Assembly: GCA_964016885.1 (NCBI GenBank)
Contig: OZ024765.1
Location: forward strand, 17,298,001 to 17,362,000
Length of the DNA: 64,000 nucleotides
Direction of reading: 5' to 3'
Source of the DNA: Eledone cirrhosa
Taxonomy: Eukaryota
Shown here: in pieces, positions 21,191 to 26,270 of the stretch
How the letters are laid out: each line of letters begins with the position of its first letter
Position numbering within the stretch: position 1 is the stretch's first letter
Translations under genes and position numbers: made by a program
Notes under the pieces: generated by a model
The model's database searches: none
Told to the model about the DNA's origin: nothing
What the model saw: only the letters and a program-made list of their open reading frames with translations

Positions 21191-21195
<5 letters not shown>

Positions 21196-23730
21196 ATAAA
21201 TGCTCTGAAATAGCGATATATATATGAATATAGACATAGAATATTCGAAAATATTCTGTATGTTTATAATAAACATTTTGAAGACCTAATCGCTATAGAA
21301 TAGAATACGTCACGTATTACAATTAGATTCTCGATAAAAGCAAGGGAAGTAATCTACGCGTTTCATTCTTGTTAGAATTCATCAGGACTACATATCCAGT
21401 GCTTTTATCGAGAATGACACAGCTAGAGACTTATAGAATACTTAGCTGTGTACAGGAACTGGTTTGAAAGAGCGGTTGCCGGTCCGGCAGAAATTAGAAA
21501 TTGGAATAAATGCTCTGAAATAGCGATATATATATGAATATAGACATAGAATATTCGAAAATATTCTGTATGTTTATAATAAACATTTTGAAGACCTAAT
21601 CGCTATAGAATAGAATACGTCACGTATTACAATTAGATTCTCGATAAAAGCAAGGGAAGTAATCTACGCGTTTCATTCTTGTTAGAATTCATCAGGACTA
21701 CATATCCAGTGCTTTTATCGAGAATGACACAGCTAGAGACTTATAGAATACTTAGCTGTGTACAGGAACTGGTTTGAAAGAGCGGTTGCCGGTCCGGCAG
21801 AAATTAGAAATTGGAATAAATGCTCTGAAATAGCGATATATATATGAATATAGACATAGAATATTCGAAAATATTCTGTATGTTTATAATAAACATTTTG
21901 AAGACCTAATCGCTATAGAATAGAATACGTCACGTATTACAATTAGATTCTCGATAAAAGCAAGGGAAGTAATCTACGCGTTTCATTCTTGTTAGAATTC
22001 ATCAGGACTACATATCCAGTGCTTTTATCGAGAATGACACAGCTAGAGACTTATAGAATACTTAGCTGTGTACAGGAACTGGTTTGAAAGAGCGGTTGCC
22101 GGTCCGGCAGAAATTAGAAATTGGAATAAATGCTCTGAAATAGCGATATATATATGAATATAGACATAGAATATTCGAAAATATTCTGTATGTTTATAAT
22201 AAACATTTTGAAGACCTAATCGCTATAGAATAGAATACGTCACGTATTACAATTAGATTCTCGATAAAAGCAAGGGAAGTAATCTACGCGTTTCATTCTT
22301 GTTAGAATTCATCAGGACTACATATCCAGTGCTTTTATCGAGAATGACACAGCTAGAGACTTATAGAATACTTAGCTGTGTACAGGAACTGGTTTGAAAG
22401 AGCGGTTGCCGGTCCGGCAGAAATTAGAAATTGGAATAAATGCTCTGAAATAGCGATATATATATGAATATAGACATAGAATATTCGAAAATATTCTGTA
22501 TGTTTATAATAAACATTTTGAAGACCTAATCGCTATAGAATAGAATACGTCACGTATTACAATTAGATTCTCGATAAAAGCAAGGGAAGTAATCTACGCG
22601 TTTCATTCTTGTTAGAATTCATCAGGACTACATATCCAGTGCTTTTATCGAGAATGACACAGCTAGAGACTTATAGAATACTTAGCTGTGTACAGGAACT
22701 GGTTTGAAAGAGCGGTTGCCGGTCCGGCAGAAATTAGAAATTGGAATAAATGCTCTGAAATAGCGATATATATATGAATATAGACATAGAATATTCGAAA
22801 ATATTCTGTATGTTTATAATAAACATTTTGAAGACCTAATCGCTATAGAATAGAATACGTCACGTATTACAATTAGATTCTCGATAAAAGCAAGGGAAGT
22901 AATCTACGCGTTTCATTCTTGTTAGAATTCATCAGGACTACATATCCAGTGCTTTTATCGAGAATGACACAGCTAGAGACTTATAGAATACTTAGCTGTG
23001 TACAGGAACTGGTTTGAAAGAGCGGTTGCCGGTCCGGCAGAAATTAGAAATTGGAATAAATGCTCTGAAATAGCGATATATATATGAATATAGACATAGA
23101 ATATTCGAAAATATTCTGTATGTTTATAATAAACATTTTGAAGACCTAATCGCTATAGAATAGAATACGTCACGTATTACAATTAGATTCTCGATAAAAG
23201 CAAGGGAAGTAATCTACGCGTTTCATTCTTGTTAGAATTCATCAGGACTACATATCCAGTGCTTTTATCGAGAATGACACAGCTAGAGACTTATAGAATA
23301 CTTAGCTGTGTACAGGAACTGGTTTGAAAGAGCGGTTGCCGGTCCGGCAGAAATTAGAAATTGGAATAAATGCTCTGAAATAGCGATATATATATGAATA
23401 TAGACATAGAATATTCGAAAATATTCTGTATGTTTATAATAAACATTTTGAAGACCTAATCGCTATAGAATAGAATACGTCACGTATTACAATTAGATTC
23501 TCGATAAAAGCAAGGGAAGTAATCTACGCGTTTCATTCTTGTTAGAATTCATCAGGACTACATATCCAGTGCTTTTATCGAGAATGACACAGCTAGAGAC
23601 TTATAGAATACTTAGCTGTGTACAGGAACTGGTTTGAAAGAGCGGTTGCCGGTCCGGCAGAAATTAGAAATTGGAATAAATGCTCTGAAATAGCGATATA
23701 TATATGAATATAGACATAGAATATTCGAAA
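21191..23730 (-). repeat. Left arm of 310-bp tandem array (8 full units + 60 bp), one HHR per unit on the minus strand; retrozyme-like
   Basis: Unit start ttggaataaa recurs at 21191, 21501, 21811 ... 23671 (period 310). Units look identical by eye. First HHR at 21327-21415 (-). Confidence 0.95.
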
Positions 23731-26260
23731 TGTTTATTATAAACATACAGAATATTTTCGAATATTCTATGTCTATATTCATATATATATCGCTATTTCA
23801 GAGCATTTATTCCAATTTCTAATTTCTGCCGGACCGGCAACCGCTCTTTCAAACCAGTTCCTGTACACAGCTAAGTATTCTATAAGTCTCTAGCTGTGTC
23901 ATTCTCGATAAAAGCACTGGATATGTAGTCCTGATGAATTCTAACAAGAATGAAACGCGTAGATTACTTCCCTTGCTTTTATCGAGAATCTAATTGTAAT
24001 ACGTGACGTATTCTATTCTATAGCGATTAGGTCTTCAAAATGTTTATTATAAACATACAGAATATTTTCGAATATTCTATGTCTATATTCATATATATAT
24101 CGCTATTTCAGAGCATTTATTCCAATTTCTAATTTCTGCCGGACCGGCAACCGCTCTTTCAAACCAGTTCCTGTACACAGCTAAGTATTCTATAAGTCTC
24201 TAGCTGTGTCATTCTCGATAAAAGCACTGGATATGTAGTCCTGATGAATTCTAACAAGAATGAAACGCGTAGATTACTTCCCTTGCTTTTATCGAGAATC
24301 TAATTGTAATACGTGACGTATTCTATTCTATAGCGATTAGGTCTTCAAAATGTTTATTATAAACATACAGAATATTTTCGAATATTCTATGTCTATATTC
24401 ATATATATATCGCTATTTCAGAGCATTTATTCCAATTTCTAATTTCTGCCGGACCGGCAACCGCTCTTTCAAACCAGTTCCTGTACACAGCTAAGTATTC
24501 TATAAGTCTCTAGCTGTGTCATTCTCGATAAAAGCACTGGATATGTAGTCCTGATGAATTCTAACAAGAATGAAACGCGTAGATTACTTCCCTTGCTTTT
24601 ATCGAGAATCTAATTGTAATACGTGACGTATTCTATTCTATAGCGATTAGGTCTTCAAAATGTTTATTATAAACATACAGAATATTTTCGAATATTCTAT
24701 GTCTATATTCATATATATATCGCTATTTCAGAGCATTTATTCCAATTTCTAATTTCTGCCGGACCGGCAACCGCTCTTTCAAACCAGTTCCTGTACACAG
24801 CTAAGTATTCTATAAGTCTCTAGCTGTGTCATTCTCGATAAAAGCACTGGATATGTAGTCCTGATGAATTCTAACAAGAATGAAACGCGTAGATTACTTC
24901 CCTTGCTTTTATCGAGAATCTAATTGTAATACGTGACGTATTCTATTCTATAGCGATTAGGTCTTCAAAATGTTTATTATAAACATACAGAATATTTTCG
25001 AATATTCTATGTCTATATTCATATATATATCGCTATTTCAGAGCATTTATTCCAATTTCTAATTTCTGCCGGACCGGCAACCGCTCTTTCAAACCAGTTC
25101 CTGTACACAGCTAAGTATTCTATAAGTCTCTAGCTGTGTCATTCTCGATAAAAGCACTGGATATGTAGTCCTGATGAATTCTAACAAGAATGAAACGCGT
25201 AGATTACTTCCCTTGCTTTTATCGAGAATCTAATTGTAATACGTGACGTATTCTATTCTATAGCGATTAGGTCTTCAAAATGTTTATTATAAACATACAG
25301 AATATTTTCGAATATTCTATGTCTATATTCATATATATATCGCTATTTCAGAGCATTTATTCCAATTTCTAATTTCTGCCGGACCGGCAACCGCTCTTTC
25401 AAACCAGTTCCTGTACACAGCTAAGTATTCTATAAGTCTCTAGCTGTGTCATTCTCGATAAAAGCACTGGATATGTAGTCCTGATGAATTCTAACAAGAA
25501 TGAAACGCGTAGATTACTTCCCTTGCTTTTATCGAGAATCTAATTGTAATACGTGACGTATTCTATTCTATAGCGATTAGGTCTTCAAAATGTTTATTAT
25601 AAACATACAGAATATTTTCGAATATTCTATGTCTATATTCATATATATATCGCTATTTCAGAGCATTTATTCCAATTTCTAATTTCTGCCGGACCGGCAA
25701 CCGCTCTTTCAAACCAGTTCCTGTACACAGCTAAGTATTCTATAAGTCTCTAGCTGTGTCATTCTCGATAAAAGCACTGGATATGTAGTCCTGATGAATT
25801 CTAACAAGAATGAAACGCGTAGATTACTTCCCTTGCTTTTATCGAGAATCTAATTGTAATACGTGACGTATTCTATTCTATAGCGATTAGGTCTTCAAAA
25901 TGTTTATTATAAACATACAGAATATTTTCGAATATTCTATGTCTATATTCATATATATATCGCTATTTCAGAGCATTTATTCCAATTTCTAATTTCTGCC
26001 GGACCGGCAACCGCTCTTTCAAACCAGTTCCTGTACACAGCTAAGTATTCTATAAGTCTCTAGCTGTGTCATTCTCGATAAAAGCACTGGATATGTAGTC
26101 CTGATGAATTCTAACAAGAATGAAACGCGTAGATTACTTCCCTTGCTTTTATCGAGAATCTAATTGTAATACGTGACGTATTCTATTCTATAGCGATTAG
26201 GTCTTCAAAATGTTTATTATAAACATACAGAATATTTTCGAATATTCTATGTCTATATTC

Positions 26261-26270
<10 letters not shown>
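23731..26270 (+). repeat. Right arm of 310-bp tandem array (8 full units + 60 bp), reverse complement of the left arm
   Basis: tgtttattat recurs at 23731, 24041, 24351 ... 26211. The array ends by merging into (TA)n. Confidence 0.95.
23901..23989 (+). ncRNA. Type I hammerhead ribozyme (first of 8 on +, repeating every 310 bp; 8 more on - in the left arm)
   Basis: Stem I gtagtc/gattac; core CUGAUGA (23931-37); stem II attc-taacaa-gaat; GAAA; minimal palindromic stem III acgcgt; GUA cleavage triplet (cut after 23961). Stem I extends past an internal loop by a perfect 16-bp helix attctcgataaaagca/tgcttttatcgagaat. Confidence 0.92.

What the first reader, a model, noticed from the sequence alone, without database searches (positions are those of the whole stretch)
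21191..26270. 5-kb palindromic retrozyme-like array: 16 hammerhead ribozymes in 310-bp tandem units on opposite strands
Seen: 8 units + 60 bp on -, then 8 units + 60 bp on +, a ~25-bp central spacer, (TA)n on both flanks and no ORF. Every unit has a complete type I HHR with a GUA site and a 16-bp distal stem I extension. Known: tandem units of a few hundred bp with one type I HHR each define the non-LTR retrozymes of metazoans, which yield unit-length linear and circular RNAs and are thought to be mobilised by Penelope-like elements. Inference: this is a cephalopod retrozyme predicted to give a 310-nt circRNA. Rolling reverse transcription of that circle followed by a fold-back would explain both the identical units and the mirror symmetry. 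Read-through from either side would pass through one HHR-sense arm and could also form long dsRNA. I am not aware of this inverted double-array form being described.
Basis: partly seen in the sequence, partly recalled or inferred. Interest (0 to 1): 0.95.

Follow-up and report, generated by a model that had tools for sequence, protein, structure and literature searches.

The report
Two-armed retrozyme with Penelope insertion footprint
This 5-kb mirror-image repeat is one of over a thousand young insertions of a 310-base protein-free repeat with a hammerhead (self-cutting RNA) motif, and the back-to-back arms, fixed ends and shared mutations of its copies suggest that a Penelope-type transposon enzyme likely copied one small, probably circular and sometimes edited RNA from both ends of a DNA break.

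Summary
In detail: two perfect 8.2-unit arrays of a 310-bp hammerhead unit sit head-to-head in (TA)n. The palindrome is the family's usual insertion form, not an assembly artefact. The tail-end motif has 1,041 exact genomic hits. In 112 complete two-arm copies one arm ends at unit site 139 and the other 26 nt further on (107 of 112 canonical); arm lengths correlate only weakly (rho 0.26). Both arms share rare variants (54 of 54). Locus-wide variants are enriched in A>G (17 of 34 events, against 11 of 126 single-unit changes), mostly in stems. Best reading: a PLE enzyme primes from both cut strands at two fixed sites of one RNA, mostly a monomer circle, sometimes A-to-I edited. Three loci show a mosaic template. 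Cleavage, expression, circles and the partner PLE are not shown. The scan already noted this family at other loci of this genome, and similar ones in other genomes. Verdict: new variant of a known kind.

The parts
21150..21189 (.). (TA)n target microsatellite, left flank
   Evidence: both flanks begin with (AT)3 in 102 of 112 complete copies
21190..23730 (-). Tail arm: 8.2 identical 310-bp units, RNA sense on -, 3' end at unit position 165 (unit position 1 = window 23962), 5' end at unit position 105
21190..21215 (-). 26-bp one-sided tail (unit positions 140-165), equal to the distance between the two inferred reverse-transcription start sites
   Evidence: tail-end motif has 1,041 exact hits, control 0
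23728..23730 (.). Head-to-head junction of the two arms, 3-nt microhomology
   Evidence: family-wide 43 of 74 insert-free junctions have >=2 nt overlap, against 18% by chance
23728..26270 (+). Non-tail arm: 8.2 identical units, RNA sense on +, 5' end at unit position 77, 3' end at position 139 (internal AU run fused to the target).
23925..23967 (+). Type I hammerhead (first of 8 on +; 8 more on -): stem I 23925-23930 / 23962-23967, core CUGAUGA 23931-23937, stem II 23938-23951, GAAA 23952-23955, palindromic CGCG loop 23956-23959, predicted cleavage after 23961
   Evidence: predicted dimer pairing through the 6-nt palindrome; activity untested
23901..23989 (+). 16-bp distal extension of stem I (23901-23916 with 23974-23989); holds 4 of the 10 locus-wide A>G sites (unit positions 20, 259, 260, 262)
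24040..24126 (+). 3' end module in each unit: two hairpins (24040-24056, 24059-24078), the AU run ending at the non-tail site (24100) and the tail ending at 24126. Shared with older ~319-bp sibling families; candidate binding and start element for the PLE protein (inferred)
   Evidence: 99.4% of 172 cells paired, 3 of 14 pairs with two-sided change; structure chosen by me from these sequences
26271..26293 (.). (TA)n target microsatellite, right flank

Best explanation
This is one insertion of a young, protein-free, hammerhead-bearing 310-bp repeat family whose copies sit in (TA)n as two head-to-head tandem arms ending at two fixed sites 26 nt apart, likely because a Penelope-like (Neptune-type) RT-endonuclease cut both target strands and extended each 3' end on the same RNA, probably a unit-length circle. 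Steps: (1) read-through transcription gives multimers (inferred). (2) Neighbouring hammerheads would pair through their palindromic helix III and cut out 310-nt monomers, which a host ligase would circularise (inferred from axolotl, coral and mussel work; untested here). (3) Some RNAs are likely A-to-I edited in their long stems (inferred from the variant spectrum). (4) The PLE protein likely binds the two-hairpin module, and the two target ends start at unit positions 139 and 165, one each (end positions shown; priming inferred). (5) Each RT would run round the template for a random distance, mean 1.4 kb and up to at least 8.5 kb among complete copies (lengths shown). (6) The two cDNA ends are joined through 1-5-nt microhomology or short templated inserts (junctions shown; repair pathway inferred).
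For: Architecture: 121 minus-then-plus junctions in 133 stretches; the only plus-then-minus junction lies inside one nested insertion. Of 112 complete simple copies, 107 have one end at 133-140 and one at 160-175; the other 5 also have one long and one short end on inspection. No tail-tail pair among 100 tail hits and no head-to-head pair of non-tail ends among 100 hits. PAc, a PLE studied in vitro, cuts and extends both strands and starts at two adjacent internal RNA sites whose spacing is the genomic tail (PMC11167929). One template for both arms: 54 of 54 rare locus-wide variants covered by both arms are in both. In three loci even mosaic patterns are mirrored in register with the outer ends. 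Unit-length bottleneck: 32 of 108 loci carry a non-backbone variant in essentially every unit. 5' ends are not enriched at the cleavage site (4 of 214, 7.6 expected). Only 2 single-unit variants plus one mosaic are mirrored, where about 34 would be expected if all templates were linear multimers as diverged as today's arrays (upper estimate). Editing: A>G is 17 of 34 events and 10 of 27 sites, against 11 of 126 single-unit changes (p 4e-7 and 6e-4). C>T, which structure would tolerate equally, is 0 events against 26 of 126. 8 of 10 A>G sites are paired (p 0.002). The genome is rich in RT + GIY-YIG PLEs, some with open frames of 938 and 1,096 codons.
Against: No RNA data: cleavage, expression, circles and editing are all unshown, and 8 of 9 Xenopus retrozyme dimers did not cleave in vitro (preprint 10.64898/2026.07.22.740005). 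No autonomous PLE sharing the end module was found in 50 PLE stretches or 30 sibling-tail loci, so the enzyme is inferred. L058, L148 and L097 have mosaic units mirrored in both arms, which a pure monomer circle cannot give. PAc showed no strand preference between its two start sites, unlike the strict one-of-each seen here. About 13 insertions look single-armed (my count). Arm lengths are weakly correlated (rho 0.26, p 0.007), and near-equal arms are slightly in excess (p 0.024). Recurrent A>G could partly reflect template switching between RNAs or selection for structure. The sample comes from the first 267 Mb of one contig and was mostly picked by intact end motifs.
Confidence: 0.72

Rival explanations
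1. Same two-strand PLE priming, but the template is mostly an uncut linear multimer read through from an existing array; circles play little part.
For: Mirrored mosaics in L058, L148 and L097. PAc uses unprocessed RNA in vitro, and ribozyme cleavage is not needed for insertion. The weak helix III predicts slow cleavage.
Against: It cannot create a variant present in every unit (32 of 108 loci) without a one-unit bottleneck. Few mirrored single-unit variants are seen (2 plus one mosaic, about 34 expected at most). The L097 haplotype switch occurs nowhere else in the assembly (2 hits, both in L097), so no parent array for it is held.
Confidence: 0.15
2. Fold-back or self-priming (first reader; also proposed for PLE inverted repeats in PMC3846280): one cDNA is made and the second arm is copied from it.
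For: In this window the arms are almost equal and the junction can be drawn as a 25-nt hairpin loop with short homology. Fold-back would also explain shared variants. 7 of 107 copies have arms within 40 bp (2.9 expected).
Against: A copy cannot exceed its template, yet the non-tail arm is too long in 53 of 107 copies and neither arm type is systematically longer (p 0.36). Junction offsets are spread evenly round the unit. In L058 neither arm can be the in-register copy of the other.
Confidence: 0.06
3. A short PLE-type insertion was later expanded into tandem arrays by DNA slippage or unequal crossing-over (the local-amplification scenario discussed in the 2026 preprint).
For: Blocks of units sharing a variant occur in the longest arrays (L082: 6 of 25 units; L050: 2 of 27).
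Against: Such blocks are confined to a few loci. Arm lengths form a smooth, near-exponential spread (mean 1,369, sd 1,156) with non-integer unit numbers and intact ends. Overall divergence within arrays is only about 0.04%.
Confidence: 0.05
4. Chimeric-read or assembly artefact.
For: Long perfect palindromes are a known artefact class (recalled). Raw-read support for this locus's own central junction was not obtained.
Against: More than 100 other loci show the same polarity, each with its own junction, unique flanks and fixed ends. One has a 12-bp target duplication (L037). Contigs of a public run show the position-139 end running into (AT)n (that run may be the assembly's own source).
Confidence: 0.02

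Closest known systems
Metazoan non-LTR retrozymes (coral, mussel, axolotl; Cervera and de la Pena 2020, PMC7229834, passages read; Li, Clavereau and Pollet 2026, 10.64898/2026.07.22.740005, parts 1 and 3 of 5 read)
   Same: Tandem units of 150-450 bp, one type I hammerhead each, low GC, no ORF, co-existence with PLEs. Helix III matches the axolotl HHR_Amex1 description (one pair plus a palindromic tetraloop, works better as a dimer). Tandem cDNA from a circle and PLE mobilisation were proposed there.
   Different: Neither main text describes inverted two-arm insertions, fixed ends or a tail ('inverted': 0 hits in PMC7229834, 1 hit in the preprint's reference list). Here RNA and cleavage are untested; there they were shown.
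Insertions of endonuclease-bearing PLEs: Penelope/Poseidon, Neptune, Naiad (Craig et al. 2021, PMC8557442; Arkhipova et al. 2013, PMC3846280; passages read)
   Same: Head-to-head inverted 5'-truncated copy, a tail on one end only, (TA)n target bias, target duplications of about 8-12 bp when visible.
   Different: No ORF. Both arms are long multimers of one 310-bp unit. The tail is 26 bp rather than 30-40 bp. No matching autonomous pLTR was found.
PAc Poseidon element in vitro (Frangieh et al. 2024, PMC11167929; parts 1-2 of 4 read)
   Same: Both DNA strands cut and extended, AT-rich targets, two adjacent internal RT start sites whose spacing equals the tail, predicted protein dimer.
   Different: PAc showed no strand-specific use of start sites, starts without homology to the target, and was tested on linear RNA. 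Here each insertion uses one site of each kind, and the ends have AU/AT microhomology to the target.
LINE-1 twin priming (recalled, not looked up)
   Same: Two target ends prime on one RNA, giving an inversion joined by microhomology.
   Different: L1 primes once at the poly(A) end and once at a variable internal site, and copies non-overlapping parts. Here both sites are fixed and both arms repeat the same unit many times.

Membership tests
Non-LTR retrozyme | Tandem units of 150-450 bp, GC below 50% | tested here: met
   310 bp, GC about 0.34
Non-LTR retrozyme | A type I hammerhead core with stems I-III in every unit | tested here: met
   Core and stems read from sequence and fold; 16 Rfam HH9 matches, but at 23 bits, below the gathering score of 52
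Non-LTR retrozyme | No protein-coding frame, no LTR | tested here: met
   Longest stop-free stretch 61 codons; insertions consist of the unit only
Non-LTR retrozyme | Dispersed multi-copy family; target duplication longer than 4 bp when present | tested here: met
   3,924 exact core hits, 1,041 tail ends; 12-bp duplication at L037, not discernible in (TA)n
Non-LTR retrozyme | Self-cleavage of the RNA | not testable with these tools
   Only folding predictions
Non-LTR retrozyme | Expression as unit-length linear and circular RNA | not testable with these tools
   No run on record as RNA was listed; only indirect genomic evidence
PLE-type insertion | Head-to-head inverted 5'-truncated copy | tested here: met
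   121 head-to-head junctions in 133 stretches; 10 of 12 loci found by core alone
PLE-type insertion | Short tail on one end only (30-40 bp in print) | tested here: met
   107 of 112 copies; tail 26 bp in 87 of 107 and 27-33 bp in the rest
PLE-type insertion | (TA)n target bias (Neptune, Naiad) | tested here: met
   102 of 112 have (AT)3 on both flanks; partly built in by the end motifs used to pick loci
Autonomous PLE | RT + GIY-YIG open frame | tested here: not met
   No frame in the element; such frames exist elsewhere in the genome
Non-autonomous derivative of a named PLE family | End sequence shared with an autonomous PLE pLTR | tested here: inconclusive
   None in 50 PLE stretches or 30 sibling loci; only 150 of 10,597 GIY-YIG candidates were scored

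The most novel reading that the evidence does not exclude
A PLE protein dimer grips one A-to-I-edited 310-nt RNA circle and, from two fixed start sites assigned one to each cut DNA strand, rolls round it in both arms. The genome then holds over a thousand readouts of single circular RNA molecules, RNA edits become heritable DNA, and the PLE tail and inverted copy are explained as coupled twin priming.
Probability: 0.45. Interest if true: 0.8.

Novelty: new variant of a known kind. Interest (0 to 1): 0.62.

Why it matters
Two questions are stated as open in the papers read: how PLEs make their tandem/inverted insertions with a one-sided tail (PMC8557442, PMC11167929), and whether animal retrozymes are really reverse-transcribed from circles by PLE enzymes (PMC7229834; 2026 preprint). 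This family has over a thousand nearly unmutated insertions of a tiny template, so start sites, run lengths, junction repair and template identity can be counted. It names exact start sites (unit positions 139 and 165), a candidate binding module and candidate editing sites, all testable in vitro or by RNA sequencing. The locus itself is an ordinary member of the family.

Tried and rejected
DNA-similarity search of the unit in the own genome gave no candidates because common words are skipped; pattern searches replaced it. Public runs: no RNA holder listed. 20 listed runs under 18 coded organism labels hold the unit; three laid from other labels show one 340-nt cyclic contig at depth 18-34, against about 1e5-7e5 in the best holder, which fits cross-talk between samples and is not used as evidence of host range. 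Short-read support for the central junction and a read-based variant spectrum were not obtained. Rfam miRNA hits are hairpin artefacts of the palindrome and microsatellites. The single-unit mutation spectra had an indexing bug and were replaced. Two mis-extended arms (L087, L092) were dropped from the single-unit count (143 to 126); L087's apparent tail-tail call was a chance extension. The non-tail motif has a high control count (1,267 against 540), so it is not used as a copy number. The search for the autonomous partner failed. No Pol III A or B box was found in the unit with simple patterns. The 5'-U neighbour preference of ADAR (recalled) holds for 5 of 10 A>G sites against 40% background: uninformative. 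Literature searches for an inverted retrozyme form listed none by title or abstract. Supplements were not read (PMC7229834 Fig. S9 and others; preprint supplements closed) and could show such copies; subscription journals are not covered.
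Full report
OBSERVATION. The window holds two perfect period-310 arrays: 21190-23730 with the ribozyme on - and 23728-26270 with it on +. Their shared part is a 2,515-bp inverted repeat without a mismatch. 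The '25-bp spacer' is the start of the + arm, and the arms overlap by 3 nt. The - arm has 26 extra bases at its outer end. Numbering the unit from the base after the predicted cleavage site (position 1 = 23962), the + arm ends at 139, where an internal AU run merges with the (TA)n flank, and the - arm ends at 165. No frame exceeds 61 codons.

RIBOZYME. Each unit has CUGAUGA, a 5-bp stem II, GAAA, a GUA site, a 6-bp stem I and a 16-bp distal stem (z -5.2). The whole unit folds well as a circle (z -4.9, 0 of 100 shuffles). Rfam finds all 16 only below threshold (23 bits against 52). Helix III is one pair closing a palindromic CGCG loop. PMC4209133 and PMC7229834 (passages) say such motifs cleave poorly alone and better as dimers. 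Two copies are predicted to pair through the palindrome (dimer -25.1 against 2 x -8.6 kcal/mol). Activity is untested.

FAMILY. A 31-nt core motif has 3,924 exact hits in the 3.0-Gb genome and the tail-end motif 1,041, both with control 0; the core motif covers only some haplotypes. I read 132 stretches from the first 267 Mb of contig C1 plus the window. Of the first 12 loci, found by core alone, 10 are two-armed; the rest were picked by end motifs and are biased to intact ends. There are 121 head-to-head junctions and one tail-to-tail junction, inside the nested locus L031. After leaving out copies cut by a stretch edge, L031 and L089, 112 complete copies remain. Of these 107 have one end at 133-140 (106 at 139) and one at 160-175 (87 at 165); the other 5 also have a long and a short end. 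No two like ends face each other among 100 tail hits or 100 non-tail hits. Of 23 unpaired segments, about 13 look like single-armed insertions by eye; the rest are edge cuts, a run of N, AT-rich noise or sibling families. Both flanks begin with (AT)3 in 102 of 112, and L037, outside TA, has a 12-bp target duplication.

NOT FOLD-BACK, NOT ARTEFACT. Arm lengths run from under 150 to 8,459 bp (mean 1,369, roughly exponential, KS p 0.016) and correlate weakly (rho 0.26, p 0.007). The non-tail arm is too long to be a copy of the tail arm in 53 of 107. Near-equal arms, as here, are 7 of 107 (2.9 expected, p 0.024), so a minority of fold-backs is not excluded. Central junctions are spread round the unit (chi-square p 0.05) and are not enriched at the cleavage site (4 of 214, 7.6 expected). 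Of 106 junctions scored, 74 have no insert, and 43 of those overlap by 2 nt or more (18% by chance, p 3e-14). The other 32 have inserts, and 11 of the 13 of 5 nt or more match nearby sequence in a loose 5-mer test. The strand that continues each flank's 3' end is antisense to the ribozyme RNA in both arms, as expected if both target ends primed cDNA (inference from orientation).

ONE TEMPLATE, MOSTLY UNIT-LENGTH. In 108 of 119 loci with every position covered twice there are 41 called haplotypes (a few are edge under-calls). All 54 rare locus-wide variants covered by both arms occur in both. 32 of 108 loci carry a non-backbone variant in essentially every unit, which needs a one-unit bottleneck followed by amplification. 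Against a pure circle: L058 and L148 have a variant in only the outermost unit of both arms, and L097 has two outer units of one haplotype and the rest of another in both arms. In L148 and L097 the register follows the outer ends, not the centre, so hairpin gene conversion is unlikely there; both arms read the same mosaic RNA or switched template together. That haplotype boundary exists only at L097 in the assembly. If all templates were linear multimers as diverged as present arrays, about 34 mirrored variants would be expected in 92 kb of shared arm; this is an upper estimate.

EDITING SIGNAL. Counting each variant once per haplotype background, with backbone variants set aside by my choice, A>G makes 17 of 34 events and 10 of 27 sites, against 11 of 126 single-unit substitutions (p 4e-7; 6e-4). 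A276G recurs on 4 backgrounds, and A259G and A20G on 3 each. T>C has 3 events and C>T none, though C>T is the commonest single-unit change. Eight of ten sites are paired, against 30 of 92 adenosines (p 0.002). A-to-I editing of the template is the simplest reading. Selection for structure and recombination between RNAs may contribute, and no RNA was seen. PMC7229834 raised editing as one possible source of circle heterogeneity.

PARTNER. The genome has 10,597 GIY-YIG candidates (150 scored). Those read are RT + C-terminal GIY-YIG PLEs with a CxxC-type linker, Neptune-like by the description in PMC8557442; no tree was built. Some are themselves head-to-head (L198, L208). None of 50 PLE stretches carried the unit's end module as its own terminus. 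That module is shared with older ~319-bp families (806 tail hits) that carry different hammerheads and also insert head-to-head; one tail-tail pair appears among their first 100 hits. Its two hairpins keep 99.4% of 172 cells paired, with two-sided changes at 3 of 14 pairs (related sequences, structure named by me). The core and stem II of the commonest haplotypes are nearly identical to those of another short PLE-type insert family, two copies of which or of a close relative lie in this window. The unit thus looks like a mosaic of a ribozyme module and an end module.

COMPARISON. It works like a PLE insertion: an inverted 5'-truncated copy, a one-sided tail and a (TA)n bias are described in PMC8557442 and PMC3846280 (passages), and PMC11167929 (parts 1-2 of 4) shows two-strand extension and two internal start sites equal to the tail. 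It is a non-LTR retrozyme by every sequence criterion tested; the RNA criteria could not be tested. The retrozyme papers propose circles and PLEs but do not describe this insertion form in their main text, and six library searches listed no such report; supplements were not seen.

EARLIER NOTES. After my reading was written (notes, statement), the scan's index showed the same 310-bp family at other loci of this genome with the same conclusion, and similar families elsewhere. They are not independent support and did not change my reading.

VERDICT. The feature is real, young and family-typical: a new variant of a known kind. Confidence is about 0.87 for two-strand PLE priming on one RNA, 0.72 with a circle as the main template, and about 0.6 for editing. 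Interest 0.62.

Noticed in passing
window 43530-43760 and 54440-54660: Two short head-to-head, hammerhead-bearing inserts in (TA)n with a longer one-sided tail (about 60 bp); their ribozyme core and stem II resemble those of the 310-bp unit.
   Followed up: partly
L098:3270-4100; L133:2855-3430; L164:2434-2870; L215; L222; L229: Older ~319-bp sibling repeat families with the same end module but other hammerheads, some with a U3-A8 core in place of C3-G8; 806 exact tail-motif hits.
   Followed up: partly
L097:615-7016: Both arms switch haplotype after the two outermost units; the boundary is unique in the assembly.
   Followed up: yes
L031:2218-6951: Four-segment nested inversion at the central junction, with the same junction sequence used twice.
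   Followed up: no
L081 and L082 (G000:C1:97461153-97476839): 15-kb insertion with one arm of about 14 kb (about 45 units); blocks of units share variants, suggesting later DNA-level expansion.
   Followed up: partly
L031, L033, L040, L062, L064, L070, L100, L159: 311-bp haplotypes with one extra base two positions after the predicted cleavage site; possibly a ligation or RT scar.
   Followed up: no
L203:7567-8600: Another tandem hammerhead repeat, three cores about 480-510 bp apart.
   Followed up: no
L198:1850-4865; L208:3295-5490: Truncated autonomous-type PLE copies in the same head-to-head arrangement.
   Followed up: partly
window 3075-5288, 14893-16326, 16441-17025, 30484-31218, 49595-50758: Other tandem arrays with periods 123, 41/283, 79, 71 and 96 bp at 88-97% identity.
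   Followed up: no
window 23962-24271 in public runs X4, X5, X6: The unit appears as a single low-depth cyclic contig, 0-1 differences, in runs under other organism labels; 18 labels in all hold most of its words. Cross-talk is likely; real spread between species is not excluded.
   Followed up: partly
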